Assembly (NCBI GenBank): GCA_964645795.1
Contig: CAZYCL010000005.1
Coordinates: 26,006 to 90,005, forward strand
Reading direction: 5' to 3'
Source: an uncultured Planctomycetales bacterium
GTDB taxonomy: Bacteria; Omnitrophota; Gorgyraeia; Gygaellales; Profunditerraquicolaceae
Length of the DNA stretch: 64,000 bases
The notes below the pieces were generated by a model. It saw nothing but the letters and a program-made list of their open reading frames with translations. It was not told the DNA's origin and did not search any database. Shown here piece by piece: positions 29,928 through 62,181 of this stretch. A program made the position numbers and the translations under genes. Positions within the stretch are counted from its first letter, which is position 1. Each line of letters starts with the position of its first letter.

Positions 29928-31055
29928 TTAGATCTTGTAGTTTTTTAGGAATATCTCCAGAGCCAAAGCACCCTTATGAAGGTTGGAGATATTTGCGTAT
30001 TCGTCGGCCATGTGCGCACAGGCATCACAACCAAACCCCGTAGCTATGGCCGGGATATTTTTTTGCTGGAAGAAGGTGATCACCGTAGCCCCTTCCGAAC
30101 CTCTTATCACCGGATGCGCCCCGGCCTGTTTCATCGCCTCAAAAAGCGAACGCACCAAAATATGCTTATCCGTAATTGCGTAAGGCTGCTGGATGCCTTC
30201 GATCTCTACCTGGAAGCTCCTGCTGCAGGCGCAGGCGATGAGTTTTAGCCTTTTGATGATCTCCTGCGCCCTCATCCCGGGCAGGAACCTGAAATCGAGT
30301 TCGAACTCGCACCATCCGGCTACCACATTTACCTTATCTCCACCTCTTATCGTTCCGATGTTCATGGTCGGCGGCCTTAGATACCTGTGTTTGCCTGCGC
30401 GGGGCAGTCCGTGCTCTTTGAGTTTTGCCAGCACGCACACCGCCTGATCGATAGCGTTAGTACCCAGGTGCGGGTATGCCCCGTGCGCTTTTTTTCCCCT
30501 GATCTTGACCTTTAAATGGAGCAGGCCCTTCTGGGATACTATAATACCGAAGTCATCCGCATCTAAAACCAGCGCCTGGCTGGCGCAGATCAAACTTTTT
30601 TCCAAAAGCGGTATGAGCCCCAGAGACGAACCGCTTTCTTCATCTGCGGTAGCGGCAAAGATAAGGTCGTAAGGAAGGCGTACGCCCTTCTCGACTATCC
30701 TGTTTATCGCCTCCATCCCACAGGCAAGATTCCCTTTACAGTCGCTGGCCCCCAGCCCGTAAAGCCTTGCACCGTTCATGCTGGCCTTAAAGGGGTTCTT
30801 CGACCAGTCTCTGCCCGCAGGCACCGTGTCCAAATGGGGAGTCAGCAACAAGGATTCCCGGCTGTTCTTTCCTTTTAATAGCGCGATGATGTTGGTGCGG
30901 TTCTTTTTAAACTCTATTGCGCGCACTTTCAGCCCCAGGCTTTTCAGGTGCCTGGCGACATAATAAGCTATCCGCGCCTCGTTGCCGGGCGGATTCTGGG
31001 AATCTATGGCGATGAGATCGCTGATAAGCCGCTCAAGCCTGTTTCTGTTTTTCAT
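29928..31055 (-). CDS. M20-family metallopeptidase / deacylase (ArgE/DapE-like)
   Basis: IAIDSQNPPGNE, HLDTV, metal ligand pattern, 375 aa. Confidence 0.65.
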   Translation of the reverse strand: MKNRNRLERLISDLIAIDSQNPPGNEARIAYYVARHLKSLGLKVRAIEFKKNRTNIIALLKGKNSRESLLLTPHLDTVPAGRDWSKNPFKASMNGARLYGLGASDCKGNLACGMEAINRIVEKGVRLPYDLIFAATADEESGSSLGLIPLLEKSLICASQALVLDADDFGIIVSQKGLLHLKVKIRGKKAHGAYPHLGTNAIDQAVCVLAKLKEHGLPRAGKHRYLRPPTMNIGTIRGGDKVNVVAGWCEFELDFRFLPGMRAQEIIKRLKLIACACSRSFQVEIEGIQQPYAITDKHILVRSLFEAMKQAGAHPVIRGSEGATVITFFQQKNIPAIATGFGCDACAHMADEYANISNLHKGALALEIFLKNYKI

Positions 31056-31704
31056 GTTCGGGAAAACCTCTCAGCGGGCAATCTTTGCATTTTGGTCTTT
31101 TTTTAAGGCAGTACTCTTTGCCCAATCTAACTAAAAGGGCATGAAACTCGTTGAATAATTTTGCGTCTTTCTTAAGCGAAGTGGTAAATAAATCCTGGAC
31201 CTGGGAATAATCGCTGTCGGCAGCGATCATCCCATGCCTGCCCAATATCCTCTTGGTATAGGCGTCAACTACAAAGACCGGCTTTCCCAGAGCGTAAAGC
31301 AGGATGGAATCCGCAGTCTCCTGGCCTACGCCATTAATCCCCAGCAGCTCTTGCCGCAGCCTTCTTTCTCCGGTCGCTTTCATCCTCCTGATGCTTGCGC
31401 CGTAGCGGTTGAAGAAAAAATCAAGGAAGCTCTTAAGCCTGCGGGCTTTTATATTATAGTAGCCTGCTGACCTGATGAGCGACGCCAGCCTTTTGTGCGA
31501 AAGACCGCGGAGTTTTCTCGCATCCAGGAGGCGCTTCTTTTTCAGGTTATCGAGCGCCTTCTCGACATTAGCCCAGCTTGTGCTCTGAGTAAGTATCGCC
31601 CCGACCATCACCTCGAAATCGGTCTCGGCCGGCCACCAGTGCTGCGGGCCGAAGGCGTTGAATAATCTCCTGTGAAAAGCGCTTAGCACAACGCAGGCAC
31701 TCAT
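31033..31704 (-). CDS. Endonuclease III-like HhH-GPD DNA glycosylase with a [4Fe-4S] loop
   Basis: HhH motif LLGINGVGQETAD...D and C-terminal CKDCPLRG Cys ligands. Confidence 0.6.
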   Translation of the reverse strand: MSACVVLSAFHRRLFNAFGPQHWWPAETDFEVMVGAILTQSTSWANVEKALDNLKKKRLLDARKLRGLSHKRLASLIRSAGYYNIKARRLKSFLDFFFNRYGASIRRMKATGERRLRQELLGINGVGQETADSILLYALGKPVFVVDAYTKRILGRHGMIAADSDYSQVQDLFTTSLKKDAKLFNEFHALLVRLGKEYCLKKRPKCKDCPLRGFPEHEKQKQA

Positions 31705-33638
31705 TCCTTTAGTTCGAGAGGATTATATTTGTAGTAGGCGAATATCGTATAGGCGGTACCCGCGACGGAACCGGTGCTGTGCCCCTTGGGGGTCCTCCAG
31801 CCATGCCCGGTATCTACATTATCAAGCGAGGCATAAGGCAGGCAGCTTTCCCCTTGGCCCGACGGCGAAGGGCTGGAGATAATCATCTTGCCCAGCTCTG
31901 CCAGATACATGTCGGCCTTTAGCTCATAGGTCCTGGCTTTGGCTATCGCTCCCTTCTTGAAATAATACTCGGCCATTATCCTGTATGAGAGGATCATCTG
32001 GGCGGTCCATTCCGGAGAAACTACCCCTCCGCGGCTGGTGTGGCGCTGGGCAGCGAAATCGAAACCTTTGACTGAGACGGTTTGGCCTTGCGGCCGCGCG
32101 TACTTTACTTCTACTGCGCAGTTCTTCTGTGCGAACTCCATGATCCTGTCTGGATTCATGCCTACTTCAAAAAGCTTTTCTGGACCGATGGCAGCTATCG
32201 ACCAGGCATAAGTGTCGGTGGCAATGGTCGAGTCGCCTTTGCCGCGCCTGATAGGCACCTCGCCCTTGGCGTAGGCGTAATTCAGCAGCCAGCTCAACGT
32301 CTTCTCAGCCGCCCCTTTATACATCTCCTTGCCGGTAAGCTTGTAGAGCATCCTAAAGAAGGCGTAGGCATCCAGGTTGTGTTCTGTAGAGTACCAATCT
32401 ATGCCCGGGCCTCCCCGCAGGCCTCCGTCATCATCCTCGCCCTGCAAATACATGACCCCTTGGGCGATCTGCTCGGCCAGCCCGAGATAATTGTTATCCT
32501 GGGTCTTAGAGGTGTACTGCACAATGGCTATCCCCAGCCAGACATTGGGCCCGACGTTAACGACGAACTCCGCAGGAGAGCCGTCATTGGCATAATAGGC
32601 GTTAAAGAATCTGCCGTCCGATCGTTTGGCGCGCCCGGAAAAGAAATCCAGGATCTTTTTGGCACGCTCATAATCTGCAGAATTGGTGTAAGCCTGCAGC
32701 ACCAGTGCCTGGTCATATAAGAACGCCCAATTCTCTACCTCGCTGTCACCCTCAAAGCTTATGACCAGGCCGGTCCTGGGGTTCTGATGGACTCTCAGCC
32801 ACCGGTACATCTTGTCGATATTGGCTTTTTCAAGGCTGGCCTTTTGGCGGTCCAGGCGCAGCAGGTCTTCGGCAATGGCATTTTCCTTGTTCTGGATAAA
32901 CACCAGCTGCTCCTGAAGGGCGCCCTTTTCCTTTGAGATCCTCTCTATCAGAGAGTTCAGTTTGTCGATCTGTACCAGGTTCCCTTTCTTCTCCTGATCT
33001 CGCCTTATCCTTTCCTCTTCGAGTGTGCGTATGCGCATCTCAGCTTCATGGATCTTTAGCTGCAGGTCCTCTCTTTCTTTGGCAGTCTCTTTTATCTTTT
33101 GCTTGGCAACGGTGGAATCCTGCAGGATCTTTACCAGCTGATCAACCAGGGCCTTATTGCCCTTTATCAACTGCATGTTGACGAAGCCGTTCAGGGCCAC
33201 CCCGATCAACAAAAAGGATATGACCGTCATCGTGACCGGGAAGAACAGCTTCCTGGCCCAGGCATAACGCATGATCTGGTTGTTCTGCCCGGCGTCTATC
33301 TCCTCATATTTGAGCCCGACCAAATACTTATTGTTGGCCGCTGGAACTTCTTCCACCCAGGTAACCGCGGTCATCGCCGTGACCGGGACCTTTAGGACCG
33401 GCATCTCCATCTCCAGTCCCAGTTTTACCTGTTTGCTCTTTATGGCCTGAGCTAATTCCTGGTTGAGATTATTTATCGCCAAACATATTCCGCCCCGGCT
33501 GACATTGTTGGTAAAACCCTGCAGCCATCCGGAGATAAATTTCTCGCTGTCGAGGCTCAACACCCTGAATTGGACGGGAAAGACAGAATCCAGGCGCAGG
33601 TAGCGGCGGCGGTTGCGCATGGGATCATTTTTATTCAT
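31701..33638 (-). CDS. PilZ-domain (c-di-GMP receptor) membrane protein fused to a coiled coil and a C-terminal (alpha/alpha)6 glycoside-hydrolase-like domain
   Basis: PilZ motifs RNRRRYLR (RxxxR) and NVSRGGI (D/NxSxxG). One TM helix (TMTVISFLLIGVALNGFV). A heptad-rich segment. The C-terminal ~380 aa is rich in aromatic residues in a six-hairpin-glycosidase-like pattern (WLGIAIVQY, DGGLRGG, TEHNLDAYAFF). Confidence 0.6.
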   Translation of the reverse strand: MNKNDPMRNRRRYLRLDSVFPVQFRVLSLDSEKFISGWLQGFTNNVSRGGICLAINNLNQELAQAIKSKQVKLGLEMEMPVLKVPVTAMTAVTWVEEVPAANNKYLVGLKYEEIDAGQNNQIMRYAWARKLFFPVTMTVISFLLIGVALNGFVNMQLIKGNKALVDQLVKILQDSTVAKQKIKETAKEREDLQLKIHEAEMRIRTLEEERIRRDQEKKGNLVQIDKLNSLIERISKEKGALQEQLVFIQNKENAIAEDLLRLDRQKASLEKANIDKMYRWLRVHQNPRTGLVISFEGDSEVENWAFLYDQALVLQAYTNSADYERAKKILDFFSGRAKRSDGRFFNAYYANDGSPAEFVVNVGPNVWLGIAIVQYTSKTQDNNYLGLAEQIAQGVMYLQGEDDDGGLRGGPGIDWYSTEHNLDAYAFFRMLYKLTGKEMYKGAAEKTLSWLLNYAYAKGEVPIRRGKGDSTIATDTYAWSIAAIGPEKLFEVGMNPDRIMEFAQKNCAVEVKYARPQGQTVSVKGFDFAAQRHTSRGGVVSPEWTAQMILSYRIMAEYYFKKGAIAKARTYELKADMYLAELGKMIISSPSPSGQGESCLPYASLDNVDTGHGWRTPKGHSTGSVAGTAYTIFAYYKYNPLELKE

Positions 33639-36022: not shown

Positions 36023-37129
36023 TTACCGGCCTGTCGTGGAGTTCCGAGCGTAATTATAGTAAGAGTTGCAAGATCCCTCGGATGAGACCATGCATGGGCC
36101 AACCGGGTCTTGCGGCGTACAAGCCTTGCCAAAAAGCGGGCAGGCTTTCGGCAATATCAACCCTTTCAGGACATCGCCGCACCTGCACTTGCGCGGCATG
36201 CCAGCGGTATGGGTCTTAACCGAAGGCAGGAGTCCGGCGGCATCAAAATCGGACAGGCTTCTTTTGATAACAAGTCCGCTGTCGGCAATGACCCCCAGCC
36301 CCCGCCAAAGCGCGGCAGCGGGCTTGAACACCCGATAGATTATCTTTCTTGCGCGGGGGTTGCCGTTTGTTTTGACCAAACGGCTGTACTGGTTTTCCAA
36401 TACGGGCCTTGGTCTGTTTATGCCGCGGATAAGAAGGTAAAGGCCCTGCACGATGTCCAGGGGCTCAAATCCCGCGATACAACAGCTTATGCCGTGCTTT
36501 TTGGGAATAAATGCGTAGGGCCTGGTGCCGATTATCGCCGATACGTGCCCCGGGCAGAGAAACCCATCAAGGGCCAGCCTCTTGTCTTTAAGCAGATGCC
36601 TCAATGCCTGCGGCATGGTCTTTAGCGCACAGAGAAAAAATAGATTTTTTAACTTCTGTTTTCGGGCGGCCAGAATGCTGGCAGCAATGGTTGGGGCGGT
36701 GGTTTCAAATCCTACCGCAAGAAATATGACCCTTTTATCGGGGTTAAGCCTGGCGATCTTAAGGGCATCTATGGGAGAGTAAGCCAGGCGGACATTTCCG
36801 AAATGCGCCCTTTCTTTTTCCAGAGAAGAGCCGCTGCCCGGCACGCCTAACATATCGCCGAAGCTTACGATAAGGTTTTTTTCGTCTCCGGAAAGGGCGA
36901 TGGCTTGGTCAATATAAGACTGGTCGCTTACGCATACGGGGCAACCCGGGCCAGAGATAAGCCGCAGGCTCGCGGGTAAAAGCTTGTCCAGGCCGAACCT
37001 TAAGAAATTGTGAGTATGTGTGCCGCAGACCTCCATTATGCTGACTTGCCGCTTAGGCATCAACGCCTTTATCTTTGAAGCGACCTTCAATACCAGCTCT
37101 TTACTGCGGTACTCATCAACGTATCTCAT
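36023..37129 (-). CDS. hypD: Hydrogenase maturation factor HypD
   Basis: MEVCGTHTH, GPGCPVCV and C-terminal CPLFG...C motifs. Confidence 0.8.
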   Translation of the reverse strand: MRYVDEYRSKELVLKVASKIKALMPKRQVSIMEVCGTHTHNFLRFGLDKLLPASLRLISGPGCPVCVSDQSYIDQAIALSGDEKNLIVSFGDMLGVPGSGSSLEKERAHFGNVRLAYSPIDALKIARLNPDKRVIFLAVGFETTAPTIAASILAARKQKLKNLFFLCALKTMPQALRHLLKDKRLALDGFLCPGHVSAIIGTRPYAFIPKKHGISCCIAGFEPLDIVQGLYLLIRGINRPRPVLENQYSRLVKTNGNPRARKIIYRVFKPAAALWRGLGVIADSGLVIKRSLSDFDAAGLLPSVKTHTAGMPRKCRCGDVLKGLILPKACPLFGKACTPQDPVGPCMVSSEGSCNSYYNYARNSTTGR

Positions 37130-37325
37130 CTATGATCTTAAGGGTATCCTTGGCCCTGCGGGCATCTATCTTTTCAATGGCAAAGCCGGCGTGCACCAGC
37201 ACATAATCTCCCTTCTTCAGCCCGCAGAGAAGCTGAATGTTCACTTTTCTTCTAAGCCCCGAGCTTTCGACGCTGGCAAACTCTTCGCCTATTTCTTTGA
37301 CCTTCATGGGAATACCCAGACACAT
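37116..37325 (-). CDS. hypC: Hydrogenase maturation chaperone HypC
   Basis: 69 aa starting MCLGIP with an essential Cys2; OB-fold size. Confidence 0.75.
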   Translation of the reverse strand: MCLGIPMKVKEIGEEFASVESSGLRRKVNIQLLCGLKKGDYVLVHAGFAIEKIDARRAKDTLKIIDEIR

Positions 37326-37326
37326 A

Positions 37327-38451
37327 TCAACCTCCTGAAAAAGCCGCTATCACCGCCTGGCCAAGCGATATCCCTGAATCAGAGCAGGAAAGCTTTTTAT
37401 GGATGAAAACTTTAAATCCCGATTTATATAATAAGCCCAAAGCCAGCTTTAGTAAAATATTATTTTGGAATACCCCGCCGGACAAAACCACCTTTTCTAT
37501 GCCGCTGGCTTGCCTTATGCGCCTTGACAATAACAGGGACATCTGCGCTATGCTCAGATGGAATTTATAGGCCATCTCGGCCCTGGGCAGGCCTTTTTTG
37601 ATATCCGAGACTATCCCGCCAAAGATCCCCTGCGGGCGGATAATATAAGCGTTGGCGCGCCTGTCTAACGCAAAACCGTAGGCTTTGGCCCTGCCCCTGA
37701 AAAAAGACGCTTGCCTTTCCAGCTTGATCGCAAGCTCCGCCTCTAACCCAGCGGAAACCTCGCCCAATATGATAGCGGCGGCGGCATCAAAGAGCCTGCC
37801 CATGCTGCTGGAAAGCGGACAGTTTACCCCCTTTACCTGCATGCTTCGAATCAGGCGCCATTTGCGAAGAGAAATGAGACTGACAAACGGGATATCTGAT
37901 TTCAGGAAGTCGTTACCGTAAAGACCGTGAAGCCAGAAGCAGGCAAGCCGCCATGGCTCTGCGATCGCCCGTTCCCCTCCGATCAAAGGAACCTCTTCAA
38001 GATGGGCCAGCCTCCGGCAGCTCTTGTAATCACAGACCAAAAACTCCGCCCCCCAAAGACCGGAATCGGTCCCCATCCCCGTTCCATCAAAAGCCACCCC
38101 TATCACCTTTTCGTTCTTCAGGCCGTTCTCAGCCATGCATGAGGCAATATGCGCGTGATGGTGCCCTATGCCTATTGCCTTAATCCCGCCTAACCCGCCT
38201 TCTGAGACAAAAACGGTCGAACGGTAGCCGGGATGCAGGTCGTAGGCTGCGATGCGCGGACGCAGCTTCATAAACCTGTCGACATCCTTGACGAACGCCT
38301 GATAATCATCGTAAACACCCAGGTCATTATGGACCGGGCTCAGATATGCCGAGTTTTTCCTTACCAGGCATACCGTGTTCTTTGTGTGGCTGCCCGTGGC
38401 AAGCACGGTTGCAGGGGACCTAAAGGCTAGTTTTACGTCTGCGGCGCTCAA
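37327..38451 (-). CDS. hypF: HypF-like carbamoyltransferase, C-terminal Kae1/YgjD-like domain only; no acylphosphatase, Zn-finger or YrdC domains
   Basis: VLATGSHTKNTVCL at the start corresponds to the beginning of the HypF Kae1-like domain. HHHAHIASC metal site and VVLSGGVFQN motif. The upstream gene is an unrelated exonuclease, so the N-terminal half is not encoded here. Confidence 0.6.
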   Translation of the reverse strand: MSAADVKLAFRSPATVLATGSHTKNTVCLVRKNSAYLSPVHNDLGVYDDYQAFVKDVDRFMKLRPRIAAYDLHPGYRSTVFVSEGGLGGIKAIGIGHHHAHIASCMAENGLKNEKVIGVAFDGTGMGTDSGLWGAEFLVCDYKSCRRLAHLEEVPLIGGERAIAEPWRLACFWLHGLYGNDFLKSDIPFVSLISLRKWRLIRSMQVKGVNCPLSSSMGRLFDAAAAIILGEVSAGLEAELAIKLERQASFFRGRAKAYGFALDRRANAYIIRPQGIFGGIVSDIKKGLPRAEMAYKFHLSIAQMSLLLSRRIRQASGIEKVVLSGGVFQNNILLKLALGLLYKSGFKVFIHKKLSCSDSGISLGQAVIAAFSGG

Positions 38452-39278
38452 GGGACCATCTCCATATCGATAATATTGTCCACCCTGAATGTCCTTTCGT
38501 CCTTTTTCAAAGAACAGTACCCTATCAGGTAGAACTTATTATTGGTTTCTCTTACCTGGCGCGGAACGACTATGCGCTCGGATAACTGGGCATCGGTGCT
38601 GCCCAAATATTTTATCTTTATGCTTATCTTCTTATCGATGGCCTTCTGGATTTCGCCGACCTTGCGGTTATTGATGTCGTCAAGCAGGGTGGCATTGATG
38701 CCGAAGAGGCTGACGAATTTATCAAAATCATCTATGCCTTTCTGTTGAAGCATTTCCACAAACCTTAGAAAGACATCGTAGGTCAGCAGAACATCCGCCA
38801 GGGCACGGTGATCCTGCTTGGTCTTCACCCCCAGCTTCTCAACCACTGAAGATAATGCATACCTGTCCTGCCCCGGAAGGAGCCGGCGCGCCATTTTCAA
38901 GGCATCAACTACGATCAGGTCTTTCGGCAGGCAGGCGCCGATAAGAGAAAGCTCCTCTTTGATGAACTCCATATCGAAGCTGGCATTATAGGAGCACAGG
39001 CAGCTGCCTTCGATAAAATCCAGAAACCTTGGCAGCACATCCTTGGCTAGAGGCGCATCTTTTATCATATCCCGGCTTATGCGGTTTACCGCGTAAGCCG
39101 CCGGGGAAACCTCTCTTTGGGGATTTATAAGCGAGCTGAACTGGGCAATCGCCCTTTTGCCCTCAAACCTTAGAGCGGCTATCTCTATGATCCTGTCTCC
39201 GGCGCCAGCACAAAGTCCGGTGGTTTCAGTATCAAAGATAGTGAACTCGATCTCTCCAAGCTTCTTATGCATGCTCAT
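38448..39278 (-). CDS. DEDDh 3'-5' exonuclease (DnaQ/epsilon-like) fused to a C-terminal WYL-like domain
   Basis: Exo I FDTETTG, Exo II YNASFDMEF, Exo III HRALADV. The C-terminal 90 aa (IKIKYLGSTDAQLSERIVVPRQV...KFYLIGYCSLKKDERTFRVDNIIDMEMV) matches the WYL consensus (WYL.A.c...R.FR.DRI). Confidence 0.6.
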   Translation of the reverse strand: MSMHKKLGEIEFTIFDTETTGLCAGAGDRIIEIAALRFEGKRAIAQFSSLINPQREVSPAAYAVNRISRDMIKDAPLAKDVLPRFLDFIEGSCLCSYNASFDMEFIKEELSLIGACLPKDLIVVDALKMARRLLPGQDRYALSSVVEKLGVKTKQDHRALADVLLTYDVFLRFVEMLQQKGIDDFDKFVSLFGINATLLDDINNRKVGEIQKAIDKKISIKIKYLGSTDAQLSERIVVPRQVRETNNKFYLIGYCSLKKDERTFRVDNIIDMEMVP

Positions 39279-40170
39279 GCCTTGAGGCTATGTAGGCGGG
39301 GATCATCTTTACCGGATGATACCCCAGCTTTGTGCGCCTGAGGTTCTCCAATCCCGAATCGTCCATTATGTTAACGAACTCAAAATCCTTCAGGTCGCTG
39401 CAAAAAGACGAAAAGATGAACTGGCTCAGGCCTTTGATCTTCAGGTCCGCCACCTCATAAGCTATGCAAAAGGTCTGCCTATCGATTACAAAACCCAGAC
39501 TGAATGCCTTAACGGCTTTACCTATCAACACTACCCTGCCGCTCAGCTCCAAGGACCTCCATGAGTTGAATATGAAATCCAGACACCTGAATCCGTCTTC
39601 CATAAGTCCGCAGTAAACCGCGTCCCGGTTGGATTCCTTTCTTGAGCTCGCCCATTCCTTATAAAGCCGCAGGCAGCCGCCTTTTCGCGAAGCAGAAAGC
39701 GGCAGATAACAAAACTCATTATTCCTTACGAAATGGTTGAAGCAGGCGCGCTGAGATTTGTATTTATTGCCCGGCAGCCCTGCGATATCGCTTCTTTTGC
39801 ACAGGTATTCCGGATATTTTTCGCTTATCTTATAACCCCAGCGGCTGAATCTGTCGATATCGGACTCCTGTAAATTCTCAATGCGGGAAATCTGCGGGTT
39901 CCTGCGGTTTATCCCGTCCATGAATTCAAATGATTCCATCAACGCGGCAGGCGAGATGTTTTTACCCAGCGGGGGAAGGTACATGAACGCCCCCGAGCCG
40001 TCAACAAAGAAAACGCACAAGTTGCCTGAAACCACAGACCACCTGATATCAAAGATGGCTTTCCATATATAAATATTTTCGAAGGTGTATACCGATAAGT
40101 CGTTTGCACAAAAACCCAGAAAATCCTTGAATAGCTGCCTGTCTTTGGCTGCCAGACTCTTTGTTTTCAT
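39265..40170 (-). CDS. DUF2156-family protein (homolog of the MprF C-terminal domain; putative aminoacyl-tRNA-dependent aminoacyltransferase)
   Basis: 301 aa with a tandem GNAT-like pattern similar to the LPG-synthase C-terminal domain; no TM domain. Confidence 0.5.
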   Translation of the reverse strand: MKTKSLAAKDRQLFKDFLGFCANDLSVYTFENIYIWKAIFDIRWSVVSGNLCVFFVDGSGAFMYLPPLGKNISPAALMESFEFMDGINRRNPQISRIENLQESDIDRFSRWGYKISEKYPEYLCKRSDIAGLPGNKYKSQRACFNHFVRNNEFCYLPLSASRKGGCLRLYKEWASSRKESNRDAVYCGLMEDGFRCLDFIFNSWRSLELSGRVVLIGKAVKAFSLGFVIDRQTFCIAYEVADLKIKGLSQFIFSSFCSDLKDFEFVNIMDDSGLENLRRTKLGYHPVKMIPAYIASRHEHA

Positions 40171-40664
40171 CAGCCTATGTCCAGCTCAAACAAGTTGGTT
40201 ACGTTATCGTAGGATTGGATCAGATGCGGGTTGTTCTCTAAAATCCGCCGGTTCCGGGGCCGAATGAAATACTCCTTAAGGTAATTAAGATATTCGTCTT
40301 TCAGGGCGCCGTGAAAATGCTCTTTTATAAAGGGGCAGGCCGGATGCAGGGCAAGATAAACCTTTTCGTCCTGCCGGTTGATGACAAAAGGATATAGCCG
40401 GCATTCAAACGGCCTCTTATCATAAATGCCGCATCTGTTGGTCGCCTGGTTAAGAAACGGGCAGATAAAGCCCTGCCCTTCGGGACCGGGCTTCAGCTTT
40501 AACCTTTTATCAGCCAGAATAAGTCCGGCATTCTCTTTACCGGCTGCCAACCCCGCGCCCTCTTCATCAAGCAGCCGCACGCTCCATACCGAGCGTTCTT
40601 GGCTGAACCTGCAGCAGCCTTGACAAGCAAGGCAATAGTCGCTCTTTAGCAGCTGCCGTATCAT
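40170..40664 (-). CDS. YkgJ-family Cys-cluster (CxxCxxCC) putative Fe/Zn-binding protein
   Basis: CLACQGCC near the N-terminus, with further Cys pairs (CPF...C...C, CPF). Confidence 0.5.
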   Translation of the reverse strand: MIRQLLKSDYCLACQGCCRFSQERSVWSVRLLDEEGAGLAAGKENAGLILADKRLKLKPGPEGQGFICPFLNQATNRCGIYDKRPFECRLYPFVINRQDEKVYLALHPACPFIKEHFHGALKDEYLNYLKEYFIRPRNRRILENNPHLIQSYDNVTNLFELDIG

Positions 40665-40981
40665 TTTACGATACTACCGTTGGCTACCCGGCGCAATGTA
40701 GTGATTATCGATATCCCGTTTTCATCGGAAGCCGCAAGCAGCATGCCCTGGCTCTCAATGCCCCTAAGCAGCGCGGGCTCCAGGTTGTCGACAACGATCA
40801 CCTGCTTACCTAATAAATCCTCTTTCTGATAAGACCCTCTTATGCCGGCCACCAGCTGCTTAGTCTTATCTCCCAGGTCAACAGTGACAACATACAGCTT
40901 ATCCGCATTGGGATGCTCGCTAACTTCTTTTATTTCAGCAACTTTCAACTCTAATTTTTTGAAATCCTCTATACTGATCAT
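40661..40981 (-). CDS. tRNA-binding protein (Trbp111/CsaA-like OB-fold)
   Basis: 106 aa, LKVAEIKEVSEHPNADKLYVVTVDLG...VAGI pattern of the Myf/EMAP domain. GGGAGGAAG RBS 4 nt upstream. Confidence 0.65.
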   Translation of the reverse strand: MISIEDFKKLELKVAEIKEVSEHPNADKLYVVTVDLGDKTKQLVAGIRGSYQKEDLLGKQVIVVDNLEPALLRGIESQGMLLAASDENGISIITTLRRVANGSIVK

Positions 40982-41093: not shown

Positions 41094-41122
41094 TTGCAAT
41101 TGAGGCAAGTAACTAATATAAT
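41094..41122 (+). promoter_or_regulatory. Sigma70-like promoter for the plus-strand GT-C/GT2 pair
   Basis: TTGCAA (41094..41099), a 17-nt spacer, TATAAT (41117..41122). It lies 31 nt upstream of ATG 41153, in the divergent intergenic region. Confidence 0.45.
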
Positions 41123-41152
41123 TATCTAATCCAGGCAAATCAGGTCAAAACT

Positions 41153-43493: not shown

Positions 43494-44327
43494 ATGGTCA
43501 GCGTAATAATTATCACTTATAACCGCGCCCGGCTCCTTAAAAGGTGCCTCGATAGCCTGTTGGCGCAGGCTGCCGCCGGGGCCGCGGAAATTATCGTCGT
43601 CAATAACGGCTCCACCGATAATACCGCGGAACTGTTAGGCAATGAGTACTGCGGCCGGATAAAGCTCATTGACACTGCCCCGAAAAGCTTGTCCGCCTGT
43701 AAACAGATGGCTTTCGATGAAAGCCGGGCAGATACCGTTGTTTTTCTCGATGACGACTGCGTGCCCAAGGAGGGATGGCTGGAGCTCATTAAAAAGTCCT
43801 GCCGCACTTATGACATACTGGGAGGGGCGGTGCTGGCTGAAGAGGGGACTGAATTTCCTCGATGGTGGAGATCCTCCTTGAACTGGCTTATCGGGATAAA
43901 CCCCGATCCCGGCTTCTCCTATCTTCCGCTGGGCAGCAATATTGTCTTCAACAGGAAGGTGCTGGAAAAGATCAACCCCATGCTTAAATCCTCGGTCTCT
44001 GTGACAATCGGGCCCCTGCCTTACGCCGAAGACTATCTGCGAGTAAGGTTAGCGCTTGCCTGCGGATTCTCAATAGGCTTCATCAAAGAGGTGGCGGTCT
44101 TTCACTATGTTCCTGCCCAGAGACTAAAAATTGGCTATCTGATAAAAAGAAGCTGTTATGAGGGAACTGCGCGCGCGCGGGTAGAAAGATCTATCCCCTT
44201 ACTTTTGCGCTCTTTTCTGGGCATCTTCTATAACCCCGTCCTATTGCTCTTGTCTGCCGATATCAATAGGCTCTTCCGCTTCCTGGCTTCAGCAAGCTAT
44301 ATCTTAAGCTACCATCGCAAGCGTTAA
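43494..44327 (+). CDS. Glycosyltransferase family 2
   Basis: MVSVIIITYNRARLLKRCLDSL, VVNNGSTD and LDDD motifs. Start placed at ATG 43494, just after the upstream stop. Confidence 0.65.
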   Translation: MVSVIIITYNRARLLKRCLDSLLAQAAAGAAEIIVVNNGSTDNTAELLGNEYCGRIKLIDTAPKSLSACKQMAFDESRADTVVFLDDDCVPKEGWLELIKKSCRTYDILGGAVLAEEGTEFPRWWRSSLNWLIGINPDPGFSYLPLGSNIVFNRKVLEKINPMLKSSVSVTIGPLPYAEDYLRVRLALACGFSIGFIKEVAVFHYVPAQRLKIGYLIKRSCYEGTARARVERSIPLLLRSFLGIFYNPVLLLLSADINRLFRFLASASYILSYHRKR

Positions 44328-45340
44328 TCCGCATTTACAATCTTGTGTAATGCCAGTCCTTCGCAGATAGCACAATCAAAGTTGCAGTCGCATTTACCGT
44401 CCCGGATGATCTCTCGAGAGCGTCTGGCCTCATCCGAGGTCCAGATATCCATAAATGACTCCTCCAGCATGTTGCCTATGGTCGCGCTAGACCAGCAGAA
44501 CTTCACGGAGCCGTCGCTTAACAATTTAACTGAAGTGACTGCCTGGTAGCATTCCAGGCGCCCGCAGCTGCGCGTAAAAGGACTATCCTTGCGCCTGACT
44601 GCCCTGGCAAGGCTACCTCTTAACCAGACAAGCCAGCGGGAGTAATCGCCCCTCTCTTTTTCGCTGAGCGCAAACCTTCGGTTGACGGACTCATCCGGTG
44701 TATCGCTAAACGTTTGTATAAAATGCCCTATCCCGTGTCTTAAGGCAAATAATTTCACGCCCAACAGGTCCAAAGGTTTTATCTCTTTGGACATAACCGA
44801 AACCAGGGAAAATGAAATAGCGGGAAACTTCTTCCTGACCTTAATGCAATTGGAAAAGGCCTCTTTAAAAAGCCGCATTTCGAAGCTCCTCAGCCTTTTG
44901 AATTTTCTCGGGTCAAGAGTATCTATGGAAATGTTTATCCTGTTCACTCCTGCCCTGATTGTCTCTTCAAGGAAACCGTAATCTCTGAAGCGCAGCCCGT
45001 TGGTACATAATTCGATGGTCTTTATTTTGCATTTTGCCGCATGCCTGATGAGACTCTGGAATCCCGGCCAGATCGTAGCCTCTCCGCCGCTTAAGCAAAG
45101 CCGTTGCGGTATACCCCACGCGCATATCTCGCCGATGAACTCTGACAGGCGTTCGAAAGTAAGCAGGCTGCCGGTTTTCTCCTGGTGATAGCAGTAAGCG
45201 CAACGGCTGTTGCAGGATGTAGTAATAGAAATCATTAGGTCCATAGGGGCAAGGCTGGGGGCGCAGTCAAGATACGACTTCTTGATTAGTGACTGCTTTT
45301 CTTCTGATATGGCCTTACGCATGGAAATCGCGCTTATCAA
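44324..45340 (-). CDS. Radical SAM / SPASM-domain enzyme
   Basis: CNSRCAYC core, and a C-terminal SPASM pattern CGRLEC...FCW...CDCNFDCAIC. Confidence 0.75.
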   Translation of the reverse strand: MISAISMRKAISEEKQSLIKKSYLDCAPSLAPMDLMISITTSCNSRCAYCYHQEKTGSLLTFERLSEFIGEICAWGIPQRLCLSGGEATIWPGFQSLIRHAAKCKIKTIELCTNGLRFRDYGFLEETIRAGVNRINISIDTLDPRKFKRLRSFEMRLFKEAFSNCIKVRKKFPAISFSLVSVMSKEIKPLDLLGVKLFALRHGIGHFIQTFSDTPDESVNRRFALSEKERGDYSRWLVWLRGSLARAVRRKDSPFTRSCGRLECYQAVTSVKLLSDGSVKFCWSSATIGNMLEESFMDIWTSDEARRSREIIRDGKCDCNFDCAICEGLALHKIVNAD

Positions 45341-46709
45341 CCGCCTTAAAAAAATATAAAGCTGCCAGATAAAGAATGGGGGCGATGATCAATGAAGGGA
45401 AAAACTCTGTCTTAAAGTAACGAATGAGCGCAAACATAATCAAACCGGATAAAACCGGCTTAATCGAAAAGTATGCCAAGGCCTTGGAGTATTCCTTTGT
45501 TGCTTTCCTGAAGTACGCTAAAACCTGCCCTGTAGCATAAGCGACCAGCGATACAAACGCAGCTCCCAGGAAACCATAACGCGGGATCAACAACAAGTTA
45601 AGCGCGACACTAATGGCCGCGGAGATGCCCGTGAAGAATGGGTCCAGCCTTTGCTCGTGTGCGGCGATGAGAATAACATTGACCGCAACCCCCGCGAATA
45701 CGAAGATTTCGCCCCACATCAGGACCGCAAAAGCAGGCGAGGCGGAAATGAACCTTTCTCCGTATAGCAGGGAAATAATCTGCTTTGAAAACATGGTCGA
45801 GTAAAAAGCCAGGGGGATTATTATTATCAAAAAGTATTTTATCAGCATGCGGTAACGTTTTTTAAACTCCTCCTTTGAAGAATCGAAGGATTTTGATAAC
45901 AGTGGCAGCATCGAAATAGCGAATGCCGCCGGAATGACGTTTAAGCTCTCGGAAATCCTGGTCCCCGCAGAATATAAACCCAGAGAAACATCGCCGTTGA
46001 ACTTGTAGAGCATTATGTGGTCAAAGCGATGGTAGATAAAGATAAAGATTGTGCTCAAGCCCAATGGCCAGGATTCCCCGAAGATCCTGCGCCACAAAGC
46101 TGGTTCTAATTTAAATACGGGCTTTATGAGCCTATCGGCAAAGAACATCAGCGCAACAAGCGCCGCCAGATATATGAATACCGAGTAAAAATAATAGTCT
46201 ATTAGGCCTTTGCCCCTGGAGGCTAGCCCAAGCACAAGCAGTATCATCAGCGCTTTTTTAGATAAATTCAAGAAGACAACATATCCCATTTTCAGCTTAA
46301 ACTGGAATACCGCTTCATAGACACAGCTTATGGAAAAAACCAGCATAGTAAGCGTTGCGAATGCCGATAAAACCAGCATTCCTGCGTCCGGACGGATAAA
46401 CCAAACGGTGACCCAGAACGCCAGCATTGCGCACAACGATATTGCGGCCTGTATCATAATGCAATTTCCGAAAAGCAGGGGTGCGAATCTTTCCTGCCTT
46501 GACATCTCGCGTATCAAGATCGGTCTGAACAGCTGGCTGTTAAGGGAAGAGAGGAGGAAAAGGAAAACCGAGAGAAAAGAAAGCTTGCCGAAGCCGCTTT
46601 CTCCGAAGCAACGGGCTATAGAAGCCGCCAGCACCAAACCGATTAGGTTCTCCGCGAAATTGCCTGCGATAATAACGAAGCTATTTTTTATTATTTTTTC
46701 CATTACCAT
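45315..46709 (-). CDS. wzx: Wzx-type oligosaccharide flippase (MOP superfamily)
   Basis: 464 aa, about 12-14 TM helices, polysaccharide-biosynthesis-protein pattern. Confidence 0.6.
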   Translation of the reverse strand: MVMEKIIKNSFVIIAGNFAENLIGLVLAASIARCFGESGFGKLSFLSVFLFLLSSLNSQLFRPILIREMSRQERFAPLLFGNCIMIQAAISLCAMLAFWVTVWFIRPDAGMLVLSAFATLTMLVFSISCVYEAVFQFKLKMGYVVFLNLSKKALMILLVLGLASRGKGLIDYYFYSVFIYLAALVALMFFADRLIKPVFKLEPALWRRIFGESWPLGLSTIFIFIYHRFDHIMLYKFNGDVSLGLYSAGTRISESLNVIPAAFAISMLPLLSKSFDSSKEEFKKRYRMLIKYFLIIIIPLAFYSTMFSKQIISLLYGERFISASPAFAVLMWGEIFVFAGVAVNVILIAAHEQRLDPFFTGISAAISVALNLLLIPRYGFLGAAFVSLVAYATGQVLAYFRKATKEYSKALAYFSIKPVLSGLIMFALIRYFKTEFFPSLIIAPILYLAALYFFKAVDKRDFHA

Positions 46710-47658
46710 TTTTATAATAATCCATTAAGCATTGCGCAAGAAAACCCTGGTTATAGGCCAGGTAACGCCCGTAATCAAGCAACCCGTAAAGTAATGCGCG
46801 CCGGATACCGAGCCCCTGGCCGTAATAATGCGCGCCTTTAAATAATACCGCAATAATGTTGGCGGCCGCCTTTATTTGTTTCAGCATCCAGATCAATGTC
46901 GCCCCGGTTATTTGGGCAAAATTGTATCGGCGCCTCTGAGGCGATCCGGATGTATTTAGGCATAGATAGCCGCCCTTGCCGTAATTATGGCTGGTTTTAA
47001 ACAGCTCTGCGGCTGTTGCCTTGTGCCGGGTATAAACCACGGCGCGCATATTATACTGGAAAAAATATCCGAGCTTTTTAAGCCTGATGCACAAGTCCAG
47101 GTCTTCTCCTCCTGGCATAATAAAACTTTCATTAAAGCCTCCCGCAGCACAAATGGCGGATCTTCTAAAAGCTGCGTTTGCGCTGATAAGACAGTATATG
47201 CCTTTATTATCCATAAGGGGTGTTTCGTTCAGGCGTATCCATGCGCAGTATTGGCTTACCGGCGAAGCTGCAGGCCGGGACTCTACCCTACCTCCCACGC
47301 CAGCCAGAAGCTGGTCCTCCTCAAAGGCGCCCGCCATTTCAGCGATCCAGCTCTCGCAGGCAACGCAGTCAGAGTCGATGAACGCAATTATCTGGCCACG
47401 GGATCTGCCAAGACCAAGGTTGCGCGCAGAAGCTGGCCCGCTGTTCTGCTGGAAAAAATAATAGAGCCGGCGGTCAGAGTTGCTTATAAGGGGCTGGACG
47501 GCTTCGGCGGTTGTGTCTTTAGAGCCGTCGTCAACGACTATAATCTCATATTGGTCCTTAGGGTAGGTCTGGCGAAAAAGCGATTTCACCGTCTCTGTTA
47601 TCGAATCGGCTCCGTTAAAAACCGGCACTATCACGCTTACAAATGGGGTATTGACCAT
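46681..47658 (-). CDS. Glycosyltransferase family 2
   Basis: VSVIVPVFNGADSI, VDDGSKD and DSD motifs. Confidence 0.7.
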   Translation of the reverse strand: MVNTPFVSVIVPVFNGADSITETVKSLFRQTYPKDQYEIIVVDDGSKDTTAEAVQPLISNSDRRLYYFFQQNSGPASARNLGLGRSRGQIIAFIDSDCVACESWIAEMAGAFEEDQLLAGVGGRVESRPAASPVSQYCAWIRLNETPLMDNKGIYCLISANAAFRRSAICAAGGFNESFIMPGGEDLDLCIRLKKLGYFFQYNMRAVVYTRHKATAAELFKTSHNYGKGGYLCLNTSGSPQRRRYNFAQITGATLIWMLKQIKAAANIIAVLFKGAHYYGQGLGIRRALLYGLLDYGRYLAYNQGFLAQCLMDYYKNGNGKNNKK

Positions 47659-47665
47659 GGTCTGA

Positions 47666-49611: not shown

Positions 49612-49614
49612 AAT

Positions 49615-52319: not shown

Positions 52320-52320
52320 C

Positions 52321-56719: not shown

Positions 56720-56843
56720 ATCAGCCCCCGGGGAAAATAGTGGTCCTTTTGACGGCCTTCAACAGCCAAAGCGCGGCATCGAACAAAAATGAGAGGAGAA
56801 AAAGGGAGATTGTGACAAGCGCCTTTAATACGGGCTTCATAAT

Positions 56844-58535: not shown

Positions 58536-58553
58536 TCTCCCCCCGCTGCCGCC

Positions 58554-59633: not shown

Positions 59634-59709
59634 TGTTTTATAAGTTTCTCTTGCCTAGCGGCTGAACTGGCGCCAATCTATGCCTTTTATCAAACAGTTC
59701 AAGCGCCAG

Positions 59710-59742
59710 AAAAAATACTTTATGCCCCTGTAAAGGGCATAA
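59710..59742 (-). terminator. Rho-independent terminator after the UGM-like gene
   Basis: 8-bp perfect stem TTATGCCC/GGGCATAA (59720..59742) with a 7-nt loop. On the minus strand it is followed, after 4 nt, by TTTTTT (plus A6 at 59710..59715). Confidence 0.55.
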
Positions 59743-59769
59743 GGCAGACCGCCCTTATTGCAGTGCTTT

Positions 59770-62107: not shown

Positions 62108-62135
62108 TGGCTGTTCGTTTTCCCCAAATACATAT

Positions 62136-62163: not shown

Positions 62164-62181
62164 GTTTGAAGTGTGGTTAAA

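What the first reader, a model, noticed from the sequence alone, without database searches (positions are those of the whole stretch)
38448..39278. DEDDh exonuclease fused to a WYL-like ligand-sensing domain
The complete Exo I/II/III motif set (FDTETTG, YNASFDMEF, HRALADV) is followed by a ~90-aa beta-rich tail ending in FYLIGYCSLKKDERTFRVDNI. That tail fits the WYL core consensus. WYL domains are ligand- or nucleic-acid-sensing regulators, often in defence systems and known as fusions to nucleases. An epsilon-like exonuclease gated by WYL could process nanoRNA, cyclic oligonucleotides or damaged DNA ends in response to a signal. It sits at the head of an operon with DUF2156, YkgJ and a tRNA-binding protein.
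Basis: partly seen in the sequence, partly recalled or inferred. Interest (0 to 1): 0.55.

Follow-up and report, generated by a model that had tools for sequence, protein, structure and literature searches.

The report
DnaQ-type exonuclease with WYL tail
This is a real, conserved housekeeping gene of Omnitrophota bacteria: a DNA-proofreading-type 3'-5' exonuclease joined to a small WYL domain that most likely grips single-stranded DNA, an architecture listed in 2014 but never studied; it is not a defence-system sensor.

Summary
Window 38448-39278, on the minus strand, encodes a 276-aa protein (probably 274 aa, starting at 39272). It has a complete DEDDh exonuclease domain (Pfam RNase_T, E 1.9e-34) and a C-terminal WYL domain (PF13280, E 7.7e-12, above the curated cutoff). 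A model of the tail matches only WYL proteins among its top 30 PDB hits.

- The gene is fourth, not first, in a co-directional array: tRNA_bind, YkgJ, DUF2156, exonuclease.
- Nothing links it to defence or cyclic nucleotides. There are no defence neighbours, no compositional island, and no copy of the fusion on phages or plasmids.
- The exonuclease is closest to the PolC, DinG and epsilon DNA proofreaders.
- Five of the six residues shown by mutagenesis to bind ssDNA in PafB are kept in this WYL domain. They include the Arg triad of the Pif1 helicase WYL.

Orthologues at the same position in other Omnitrophota lack WYL. They end instead in Q-x-S-L-F, the consensus beta-clamp-binding motif.

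Best reading: a DNA 3'-5' exonuclease recruited through ssDNA binding by WYL. The WYL plus 3'-5' exonuclease architecture was already listed by Makarova et al. (2014). The conserved link to an aminoacyl-tRNA-transferase cluster is unexplained.

The parts
38448..39278 (-). Exonuclease-WYL gene. 276 aa from the first ATG; the likely true start is the second ATG at 39272, giving 274 aa.
   Evidence: ORF list. An identical 274-aa protein, P0001, is in public data. Gene calls on 12 contigs start at the second ATG. The sequence around the start was read.
38769..39239 (-). DEDDh (DnaQ-family) 3'-5' exonuclease domain, residues 14-170. Catalytic residues D16, E18, D102, H157, D162.
   Evidence: Pfam RNase_T E 1.9e-34. 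TIGR00573 dnaq family 111 bits against a cutoff of 71.5. Best PDB match 2p1j, the T. maritima PolC-type exonuclease, E 2.7e-31. Foldseek top hits are PolC, DinG, DnaQ and epsilon. Catalytic residues are invariant.
38658..38768 (-). Helical linker, residues 171-207 (helices about 185-192 and 196-215), with conserved D184, F185, F188, L191, F192 and L199.
   Evidence: AF2 model with pLDDT 84-94 in this stretch. Conservation in A1. The first helix is also present in the WYL-less orthologues.
38457..38657 (-). WYL domain, residues 208-274: a five-stranded Sm/SH3-like barrel with no WCX extension. Predicted nucleic-acid-binding residues are R235, Y250, K258, R262 and R265.
   Evidence: PF13280 E 7.7e-12. 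PDB profile hits to PafBC, Pif1, PafC, BrxR and CapW. AF2 plus Foldseek. Residue mapping to PafB and DdPif1. Conservation.
39265..40170 (-). Upstream neighbour: soluble DUF2156/LPG_synthase_C protein (aminoacyl-tRNA transferase fold). Its stop overlaps the exonuclease start by 14 nt.
   Evidence: PF09924 E 5.4e-22. It directly precedes the exonuclease gene in 14 of the 18 Omnitrophota genome loci, and the exonuclease follows it in 56/56 metagenome loci with room. DUF2156 is described as an aa-tRNA transferase domain in PMC7334510.
40170..40664 (-). YkgJ-type CxxCxxCC metal-binding protein.
   Evidence: PF03692 E 1.2e-09. It lies upstream of DUF2156 in 62/62 metagenome loci. It is fused to DUF2156 in L015 and L018.
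40661..40981 (-). tRNA-binding-domain protein (MetRS C-terminal / Trbp111-like). First gene of the array.
   Evidence: PF01588 E 5.4e-28. TIGR00399 116.9 bits against a cutoff of 116.65. Present upstream in 45/46 metagenome loci.
41121..41148 (-). Best sigma-70-like promoter match (TTGACC-16-GATAAT), in the only intergenic gap, upstream of the tRNA_bind gene.
   Evidence: This is a consensus match only: the count of sites in the region is not above the shuffles.
37327..38451 (-). Downstream neighbour, not part of the conserved core: HypF reduced to its Kae1-like C-terminal half, followed by HypC and HypD.
   Evidence: PF17788 and PF22521. Present directly after the exonuclease in only 14/43 metagenome loci, and absent in L003, L005, L006 and L007.

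Best explanation
The gene encodes a DnaQ-family (PolC/DinG/epsilon-like) DEDDh 3'-5' exonuclease. It removes nucleotides from free 3' ends by two-metal-ion hydrolysis using D16, E18, D102, H157 and D162.

Its C-terminal WYL domain has no WCX extension and resembles the WYL of Pif1 helicases. It most likely binds single-stranded DNA through R235, Y250, K258, R262 and R265. That would hold or position the enzyme on ssDNA-bearing 3' ends such as gaps, flaps and resected ends. It may also raise activity when ssDNA is bound.

It is a chromosomal housekeeping enzyme for DNA repair or replication fidelity in Omnitrophota. Orthologues at the same genomic position in other Omnitrophota carry a C-terminal beta-clamp-binding peptide instead of WYL. 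The two tails therefore look like alternative ways of bringing the same exonuclease to DNA.

Shown: the architecture, the intact catalytic and binding residues, the fold, the family and the synteny. Inferred: ssDNA binding, DNA as substrate, and clamp binding by the orthologues.
For: Domains and catalytic residues.

The exonuclease is closest to DNA proofreaders:
- Sequence search: 2p1j 2.7e-31, then PolC, epsilon, DnaQ, ExoX and DinG.
- Profile search: 2p1j 5.4e-54, PolC 4.8e-43, DinG 2.7e-36, epsilon 6.8e-33, against RNase T 7.6e-14.
- Foldseek gives the same order.
- TIGR00573 dnaq-family cutoff is passed.

WYL fold: the top 30 PDB matches are PafBC, BrxR, CapW and DriD, several of them solved with ssDNA bound.

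ssDNA-binding residues:
- An ungapped alignment to M. smegmatis PafB maps PafB R181/Y196/R204/R208/R211 onto R235/Y250/K258/R262/R265. Mutating R181 alone, Y196 alone, R181/R204/R208 together, or R211/R214 together abolishes ssDNA binding in PafB (PMC11804915).
- DdPif1 R464/R495/R498, equivalent to TePif1 R470/R501/R504 of an 'accessory ssDNA-binding module', map onto R235/R262/R265 (PMC9964779).
- These residues are invariant or K/R across the family and in distant exonuclease-WYL proteins.

Clamp-binding motif in orthologues:
- WYL-less exonucleases follow the same tRNA_bind-YkgJ-DUF2156 genes.
- They end in Qxx[LF]F: 6 of the 8 proteins of 206-209 aa in L010-L018, and at least 116 of 120 close relatives of the L010 protein end in Q-x-x-[LF]-F, mostly QASLF or QESLF.
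- This matches the clamp-binding consensus QL[S/D]LF / QxxLF (PMC12309361).
- Control: only 1 of 62 non-Omnitrophota exonuclease ORFs ends this way, and that one is a PolC, whose C-terminal clamp motif is known.

Housekeeping character: more than 1,600 homologues, and the top 120 all share the architecture at 52-59% identity. There are no defence neighbours, GC is flat, and the fusion is absent from phages and plasmids. Exonuclease-WYL genes of other lineages (one annotated Candidatus Fischerbacteria) sit in unrelated housekeeping contexts. An HhH-GPD DNA glycosylase gene is syntenic downstream and directly adjacent in L007.
Against: - No biochemistry exists for any member.
- The gene order tRNA_bind-YkgJ-DUF2156-exonuclease is conserved at phylum depth (56/56 and 14/18 loci). 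That hints at an RNA/tRNA-related role which this explanation does not account for.
- Makarova et al. (2014) labelled the partner domain '3'->5' exoRNase'.
- From my own knowledge, some WYL proteins (WYL1 of Cas13d systems) bind ssRNA, and S. aureus DinG exonuclease also cuts RNA.
- Clamp binding by the orthologues is inferred from a motif only.
- I could not inspect the model coordinates, so it is unknown whether the WYL basic face points toward the active site.
- WYL has been lost in close relatives (L126, L155, L012), so it is dispensable in some lineages.
- I could not check whether these genomes hold another dnaQ.
Confidence: 0.55

Rival explanations
1. The exonuclease acts on RNA or tRNA 3' ends as the fourth component of a tRNA-centred module. 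The tRNA-binding protein and the DUF2156 aminoacyl-tRNA transferase (with YkgJ) use charged tRNA. The exonuclease then trims or degrades the tRNA 3' end, with WYL gripping the single-stranded ACCA tail.
For: - The four-gene order is conserved over deep divergence (exonuclease 37-45% identity, DUF2156 27-34%), while flanking genes vary.
- Start and stop codons overlap.
- YkgJ and DUF2156 are fused in L015 and L018, which shows that at least those two act together.
- DEDDh enzymes include RNase T. Makarova 2014 calls the partner an exoRNase.
Against: - By sequence and fold the exonuclease is much closer to DNA proofreaders than to RNase T, Orn or ERI1.
- The syntenic orthologues carry a canonical beta-clamp motif.
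- The exonuclease occurs away from the trio in L017, and exonuclease-WYL genes of other lineages have no such neighbours.
- Almost every gene in this window is co-directional with overlapping ends, so adjacency alone means little here.
- No known aa-tRNA transferase pathway needs an exonuclease.
Confidence: 0.15
2. The WYL domain is an allosteric switch rather than a tether. As in DriD, PafBC and CapW, ssDNA produced by damage would bind WYL as a signal and turn the exonuclease on, or change its oligomeric state.
For: - All structurally characterised WYL regulators use ssDNA as an allosteric signal.
- The same binding residues are conserved here.
- The high pTM of 0.85 suggests a fixed packing of WYL and linker against the catalytic domain.
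Against: - There is no WCX domain. [quoted passage not shown]
- By sequence search against solved structures, the closest WYL is that of Pif1, where it is described as an accessory binding module.
- Orthologues swap WYL for a tethering peptide, which points to a recruitment role.
Confidence: 0.2
3. One reading: a defence-related nuclease gated by a small signal, such as a cyclic oligonucleotide or nanoRNA, sensed by WYL.
For: - WYL and DEDDh domains each occur in CRISPR- and CBASS-associated proteins. PADLOC gives domain-level hits to CRISPR-associated DEDDh, WYL and PDC-S48.
- Makarova 2014 proposed ligand sensing for WYL.
Against: - No defence gene lies in the neighbourhood.
- The gene sits in conserved housekeeping synteny across a phylum.
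- There is no compositional island.
- It is absent from phage and plasmid records.
- The experimentally established WYL ligand is ssDNA.
Confidence: 0.05

Closest known systems
Stand-alone PolC-type exonuclease of Thermotoga maritima (PDB 2P1J), and the exonuclease domains of PolC, S. aureus DinG and E. coli Pol III epsilon (DnaQ)
   Same: The same DEDDh fold and motifs. These are the best sequence and structure matches (2p1j 38-39% identity; E 2.7e-31 by sequence and 5.4e-54 by profile).
   Different: None of them has a WYL domain. The epsilon equivalog cutoffs are not reached (111.7 vs 222.7 bits; 112.9 vs 196). I recognised no epsilon-type C-terminal alpha-binding segment and no internal clamp motif.
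C-terminal WYL domain of bacterial Pif1 helicases (TePif1, DdPif1 8BNV, SsPif1 8BNS)
   Same: - A WYL domain at the extreme C terminus of a nucleic-acid enzyme, with no HTH and no WCX.
- The best single-sequence PDB hits for the tail (E 3.7e-7 and 3e-6).
- A shared Arg triad and the G-[YF]-C motif.
- Described in the literature as an accessory ssDNA-binding module.
   Different: The partner enzyme is an SF1B helicase, not an exonuclease. About 35-40% identity over 70 residues.
HTH-WYL-WCX transcription factors (PafBC, DriD, CapW, BrxR)
   Same: The same WYL fold (rmsd 1.2-2.4 A). Five of the six PafB ssDNA-binding residues are retained.
   Different: There is no DNA-binding HTH and no WCX domain, and it is not a regulator. 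In those proteins ssDNA is an allosteric signal.
The 'WYL + 3'->5' exoRNase' domain architecture listed by Makarova, Anantharaman, Grishin, Koonin and Aravind (2014)
   Same: The same two-domain combination, so the fusion as such has been recorded.
   Different: It was only listed, in a defence and ligand-sensing context, with no family description, function or genomic context. Here the family is mostly Omnitrophota, chromosomal and not linked to defence.
CRISPR Cas2-DEDDh and the CBASS Cap18 exonuclease
   Same: DEDDh domains that turn up in PDB and PADLOC searches.
   Different: Weaker matches, with no cas or CBASS genes nearby. The resemblance is at domain level only.

Membership tests
DEDDh / DnaQ-like 3'-5' exonuclease (Pfam RNase_T PF00929; NCBIfam TIGR00573 dnaq family) | Exo I (DxE), Exo II (D) and Exo III (Hx4D) motifs all present | tested here: met
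   D16, E18, D102, H157 and D162 are invariant in 32 family members and in all 44 sequences examined.
DEDDh / DnaQ-like 3'-5' exonuclease (Pfam RNase_T PF00929; NCBIfam TIGR00573 dnaq family) | Score above the curated family thresholds | tested here: met
   PF00929: 120 bits against a cutoff of 24. TIGR00573: 111 bits against a cutoff of 71.5.
DEDDh / DnaQ-like 3'-5' exonuclease (Pfam RNase_T PF00929; NCBIfam TIGR00573 dnaq family) | 3'-5' exonuclease activity | not testable with these tools
   This needs an enzyme assay.
DNA polymerase III epsilon subunit proper (TIGR01406 / PRK05711 equivalogs) | Equivalog score cutoff, and an epsilon-type C-terminal segment that binds the alpha subunit | tested here: not met
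   111.7 bits against 222.7, and 112.9 against 196. The C terminus is a WYL domain instead.
WYL domain (PF13280) | Score above the Pfam gathering threshold, with full-length domain coverage | tested here: met
   45.5 bits against a cutoff of 21.8, E 7.7e-12, profile positions 4-70 of 70. The family profile hits PafBC at 4.9e-19 and Pif1 at 9.5e-15.
WYL domain (PF13280) | Sm/SH3-like five-stranded barrel that superposes on solved WYL domains better than on other SH3-like folds | tested here: met
   AF2 model with pLDDT 87.5. The Foldseek top 30 are all WYL proteins (E 3e-6 to 3e-3, rmsd 1.2-2.4 A). Ribosomal and Tudor-like folds appear only at E >= 0.009.
WYL domain (PF13280) | The W-Y-L strand motif and the conserved basic residues of the ligand groove | tested here: met
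   The motif here is F249-Y250-L251. Y and L are invariant in the family; the W position varies. R235, R262 and R265 are invariant in the 32-member family alignment (a few K substitutions in more distant members), and residue 258 is K or R. These correspond to PafB R181/R208/R211/R204.
WYL domain (PF13280) | Binding of single-stranded nucleic acid | not testable with these tools
   Inferred from residue conservation only.
HTH-WYL-WCX transcription regulators (PafBC/DriD/CapW/BrxR type) | An N-terminal (w)HTH DNA-binding domain and a C-terminal WCX domain | tested here: not met
   Pfam finds neither HTH_PafC nor WCX. The protein ends 2 residues after the WYL domain.
Anti-phage defence system component (CRISPR-associated WYL/DEDDh, CBASS Cap18/CapW, PDC-S48) | Encoded next to the other genes of a defence system or in a defence island | tested here: not met
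   PADLOC gives no hit for any neighbour. The neighbours are tRNA_bind, YkgJ, DUF2156, hyp genes, a glycosylase and a peptidase. GC is flat. No phage or plasmid record covers 80% or more of the protein.
Beta-clamp-binding proteins (this applies to the WYL-less orthologues, not to the window protein) | An exposed QL[S/D]LF / QxxLF pentapeptide, often at the C terminus | tested here: met
   For the orthologues: at least 116 of 120 close relatives end in Q-x-x-[LF]-F, mostly QASLF or QESLF, and 6 of the 8 proteins of 206-209 aa in L010-L018 end in Qxx[LF]F. Consensus from PMC12309361. The window protein has no such motif at its C terminus. Actual binding to DnaN was not tested.

The most novel reading that the evidence does not exclude
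The exonuclease-WYL protein is the nuclease arm of a previously undescribed four-gene tRNA-centred module: a tRNA-binding protein, a YkgJ metal protein, a soluble DUF2156 aminoacyl-tRNA transferase, and the DEDDh-WYL exonuclease. The module is conserved throughout Omnitrophota. In this reading WYL grips the single-stranded tRNA 3' end and the exonuclease processes or clears tRNA used for a non-ribosomal aminoacyl transfer.
Probability: 0.12. Interest if true: 0.7.

Novelty: new member of a known kind. Interest (0 to 1): 0.35.

Why it matters
WYL domains are studied mainly as ssDNA-sensing switches in transcription factors of DNA-damage and anti-phage responses. The only enzyme-appended WYL with biochemical data known to me is that of Pif1 helicase. 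A large exonuclease-WYL family conserved across a phylum would be a second, simpler case for asking whether WYL acts as a substrate tether or as a switch.

The apparent swap between a WYL domain and a beta-clamp-binding peptide on orthologous exonucleases gives a concrete, testable hypothesis about how 3'-5' exonucleases are brought to DNA in a little-studied phylum made up mostly of uncultured bacteria.

It does not open a major question. The architecture was already catalogued, and both domains are well understood.

Tried and rejected
The exhaustive representative search did work.
- Full-length Foldseek was dominated by the exonuclease domain, so the tail was modelled and searched separately.
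- The genome-collection scan used exonuclease-motif patterns. Beyond the 18 Omnitrophota loci it returned mostly ordinary dnaQ genes or exonuclease domains of larger proteins, none with the gene cluster.
- The metagenome scan with the DUF2156 alignment returned only close relatives at 46-52% identity. It quantified the cluster's conservation but could not show whether the cluster exists outside the phylum.
- I considered the conserved 'DFxxFxxLF' linker as an internal clamp-binding motif and rejected it. It is a confidently predicted helix, and it is also present in the orthologues that carry a separate C-terminal motif.
- A neighbour-joining tree of exonuclease domains, without bootstrap, places the clamp-motif clade among WYL-bearing sequences. 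It cannot settle which tail is ancestral.
- The promoter and terminator scans were not above shuffled expectation.
- Literature searches for WYL with exonuclease or DnaQ found no study of this family.
Full report
**1. The observation**

Window 38448..39278 holds one ORF on the minus strand, 276 aa with an ATG start.

The quoted motifs are all present:
- FDTETTG, residues 15-21
- YNASFDMEF, residues 97-105
- HRALADV, residues 157-163
- FYLIGYCSLKKDERTFRVDNI, residues 249-269

Pfam gives RNase_T for residues 14-170 (E 1.9e-34). It gives WYL (PF13280) for residues 208-274, covering profile positions 4-70 of 70 (E 7.7e-12; 45.5 bits against a gathering score of 21.8). NCBIfam TIGR00573, the dnaq/epsilon-family exonuclease domain, is passed at 111 bits against 71.5. 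The epsilon equivalog models are not reached.

Homologues and independent gene calls begin at the second ATG (39272), giving 274 aa. The tail is not all beta: two helices (about 185-192 and 196-215) come before a five-stranded barrel at 219-275.

**2. The C-terminal domain is a true WYL domain**

- A profile of the family hits PafBC (4.9e-19), the Pif1 helicase of Deferribacter (8BNV, 9.5e-15), PafC, BrxR and CapW in the PDB.
- I modelled the last 102 residues separately (pLDDT 87.5). The 30 best Foldseek matches are all WYL proteins (PafBC, BrxR, CapW, DriD), at rmsd 1.2-2.4 A over about 70 residues.
- Ribosomal SH3/KOW-like and Tudor-like folds appear only at E >= 0.009.

**3. The family**

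The word-index search found 1,657 homologues with E <= 1e-5. The best 120 are all 265-301 aa, all carry PF00929 and PF13280, and (apart from the identical copy, P0001) are 52-59% identical to the query. Where a name exists it is Candidatus Omnitrophota/Omnitrophica, with labels such as 'exonuclease domain-containing protein' or 'WYL domain-containing protein'.

In a 32-sequence alignment these residues are invariant:
- Catalytic: D16, E18, D102, H157, D162.
- WYL: Y224, R235, P239, Y250, L251, G253, C255, L257, E261, R262, F264, R265, D267.

An exhaustive search with the tail alone found 237 representative clusters at E <= 1e-3. Of the best 150, 37 also carry the exonuclease domain. One of these is annotated Candidatus Fischerbacteria and one 'Patescibacteria group bacterium'. 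Of the ten non-exonuclease hits I scanned, six are PafBC/PafC-like HTH_PafC-WYL regulators (five of them with a WCX domain) and four have a lone C-terminal WYL, one of those after a helicase C-terminal domain.

Makarova et al. (2014) already list WYL combined with a '3'->5' exoRNase' among WYL fusions (PMC4012209). I found no study of the family.

**4. Genomic context**

On the minus strand the gene order is:
1. tRNA_bind (40981-40661)
2. YkgJ/CxxCxxCC (40664-40170)
3. DUF2156/LPG_synthase_C (40170-39265)
4. exonuclease-WYL (39278-38448)
5. HypF C-terminal half (38451-37327)
6. HypC
7. HypD
8. a TPR/DUF3857/transglutaminase protein

Stop and start codons overlap or nearly touch throughout. The only intergenic gap and the best promoter-like site lie upstream of tRNA_bind. 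The exonuclease is therefore the fourth gene, not the head of the array.

How well the order is conserved:
- In 18 Omnitrophota genome loci, the trio tRNA_bind-YkgJ-DUF2156 precedes the exonuclease in 14. L003 is cut within DUF2156, two loci lack upstream sequence, and one (L017) has other neighbours.
- In 80 metagenome loci found through DUF2156, the exonuclease follows in 56/56 loci with room. YkgJ precedes in 62/62 and tRNA_bind in 45/46. The hyp genes follow directly in only 14/43.
- YkgJ and DUF2156 are fused in L015 and L018.
- Outside Omnitrophota, the cluster is absent around dnaQ-like genes and around the exonuclease-WYL genes of other lineages.

Nothing points to defence or mobility:
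- PADLOC gives only domain-level hits for the protein itself and none for its neighbours.
- The rest of the window is housekeeping and polysaccharide biosynthesis: EF-G, PurH, MnmE, glycosyltransferases and radical-SAM enzymes.
- GC content is flat.
- No phage or plasmid record holds the full fusion.

**5. What the exonuclease resembles**

| Search | Closest matches | More distant |
|---|---|---|
| Sequence vs PDB | T. maritima PolC-type exonuclease 2P1J (2.7e-31), then PolC, epsilon, DnaQ, ExoX, DinG | |
| Family profile vs PDB | 2P1J 5.4e-54, PolC 4.8e-43, DinG 2.7e-36, epsilon 6.8e-33 | RNase T 7.6e-14 |
| Foldseek | same order | |

This places it among DNA-proofreading-type enzymes rather than RNase T, Orn or ERI1.

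**6. What the WYL domain most likely does**

An ungapped HMMER alignment with M. smegmatis PafB (7P5X chain AY) gives a constant offset of +54:

| PafB residue | Window protein | Conservation in the family |
|---|---|---|
| R181 | R235 | invariant |
| Y196 | Y250 | invariant |
| R204 | K258 | K or R |
| R208 | R262 | invariant |
| R211 | R265 | invariant |
| R214 | N268 | not conserved; R in many distant exonuclease-WYL proteins |

In PafB, the R181A, Y196A, R181A/R204A/R208A and R211A/R214A variants each abolish ssDNA binding (PMC11804915). Five of the six residues are therefore kept in this family, and conservation extends to distant exonuclease-WYL proteins.

The best single-sequence PDB hits for the tail are the WYL domains of two Pif1 helicases (E 3.7e-7 and 3e-6). 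DdPif1 R464/R495/R498 align with R235/R262/R265. These correspond to TePif1 R470/R501/R504, and that domain was characterised as an accessory ssDNA-binding module (PMC9964779). Like Pif1 and unlike the regulators, this protein has no WCX domain. In CapW, the WCX domain receives the 3' end of the bound ssDNA (PMC11662680).

**7. A clue from orthologues**

In the Omnitrophota loci L010-L018, the exonuclease sits in the same position after DUF2156 but is only 185-209 aa and has no WYL.

- Six of the eight proteins of 206-209 aa end in Qxx[LF]F.
- Among 120 close relatives of the L010 protein, at least 116 end in Q-x-x-[LF]-F. Most are QASLF or QESLF, some QSLLF.
- This is the consensus beta-clamp-binding pentapeptide (QL[S/D]LF, more generally QxxLF), which PolC also carries at its extreme C terminus (PMC12309361).
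- As a control, only 1 of 62 non-Omnitrophota exonuclease ORFs from the same scan ends this way, and that one is a 1,472-aa PolC.

Orthologous exonucleases therefore carry either a clamp-binding peptide or a WYL domain at the C terminus.

A rough tree cannot say which tail came first. WYL has also been lost without replacement in L012, L126 and L155.

**8. Best explanation (confidence 0.55)**

This is a DnaQ-family 3'-5' exonuclease acting on DNA. Its WYL domain binds single-stranded DNA next to the 3' end and so recruits or positions the enzyme, and possibly also stimulates it. The clamp-binding tail would play the same recruiting role in sister lineages.

- Shown: the domains, intact catalytic and binding residues, the fold, the family size, the synteny and the lack of a defence context.
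- Inferred: ssDNA binding, DNA substrate preference and clamp binding by the orthologues.
- Weak extra support: an HhH-GPD DNA glycosylase gene lies downstream in conserved synteny and directly adjacent in L007.

**9. Rivals**

- (a) An RNA/tRNA 3'-end exonuclease working with the upstream tRNA-binding protein and aminoacyl-tRNA transferase (0.15). This is the only reading that explains the deep conservation of the four-gene order. The DNA-type exonuclease, the clamp motif and the occurrence of the gene away from the trio all argue against it.
- (b) WYL as an allosteric ssDNA switch rather than a tether (0.2).
- (c) A defence nuclease gated by a small signal, as first proposed (0.05).

**10. 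Novelty and interest**

The fusion as an architecture is already in the literature, and both domains are well known. What this analysis adds:
- The family is a large, mostly Omnitrophota, chromosomal housekeeping family.
- Its WYL keeps the ssDNA-binding residues.
- Orthologues replace WYL with a clamp-binding motif.
- The gene is tightly syntenic with an uncharacterised tRNA_bind-YkgJ-DUF2156 cluster.

I rate it as a new member of a known kind, with moderate-to-low interest (0.35).

Noticed in passing
window 37327-38451 (-), with 37116-37325 and 36023-37129: The 'HypF' here is only 374 aa. It is the Kae1-like C-terminal half (PF17788 + PF22521, matching positions 384-740 of the 741-position TIGR00143 model), with no acylphosphatase, zinc-finger or YrdC part. 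HypC and HypD follow, but no HypE or hydrogenase gene lies beside them. The same truncated form is seen in L001, L002, L008 and L084-L086. The hyp block is present directly after the exonuclease in only 14/43 related metagenome loci.
   Followed up: partly
L015:5654-7030 and L018:6543-7952; window 39265-40664: The YkgJ-type CxxCxxCC protein and the soluble DUF2156 (aminoacyl-tRNA transferase fold) protein are separate genes in the window. In two distant Omnitrophota they are fused into one ORF of 458 or 469 aa. With the tRNA_bind gene they form an uncharacterised trio that is almost always adjacent (62/62 and 45/46 loci).
   Followed up: partly
L010:5268-5888, L011, L013-L018; proteins P0274-P0393: The WYL-less orthologues of the exonuclease (about 206 aa) end in a near-canonical beta-clamp-binding pentapeptide (QASLF, QESLF or QSLLF) at the extreme C terminus. 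This suggests a clamp-tethered DnaQ-like exonuclease in those Omnitrophota.
   Followed up: yes
window 39272-39278: Two in-frame ATGs lie 6 nt apart. Public gene calls and the homologue alignment use the second (39272), giving a 274-aa product.
   Followed up: yes
window 31033-31704 (-); L007:4099-4746: An HhH-GPD DNA glycosylase homologue (3-methyladenine glycosylase / Nth-like, below the equivalog cutoffs) lies downstream in conserved synteny with the exonuclease-WYL gene. It is the very next gene in L007.
   Followed up: partly
window 31701-33638 (-): A 645-aa protein has only an N-terminal PilZ domain recognisable (E 3.8e-6). The remaining roughly 500 residues are unannotated. It is syntenic with the cluster in several relatives.
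   Followed up: no
window ~1500-41000 and 44300-64000: Nearly all long ORFs are on the minus strand, with overlapping or abutting stop and start codons. In this genome, adjacency and co-direction alone are weak evidence for a functional operon.
   Followed up: partly
window 2316-3767, 44324-45340, 49615-51096, 56844-58535 (-): Four radical-SAM proteins, two with SPASM domains, are interspersed with glycosyltransferases, a polysaccharide-synthesis (Polysacc_synt) family membrane protein and a GH5 cellulase-like protein. This looks like a large polysaccharide or peptide-modification region.
   Followed up: no
L126:1465-2052 and L155:4890-5459: Two close relatives within the WYL-bearing group have lost the WYL domain without gaining a clamp motif (195 and 189 aa). 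The domain is therefore dispensable in some lineages.
   Followed up: partly
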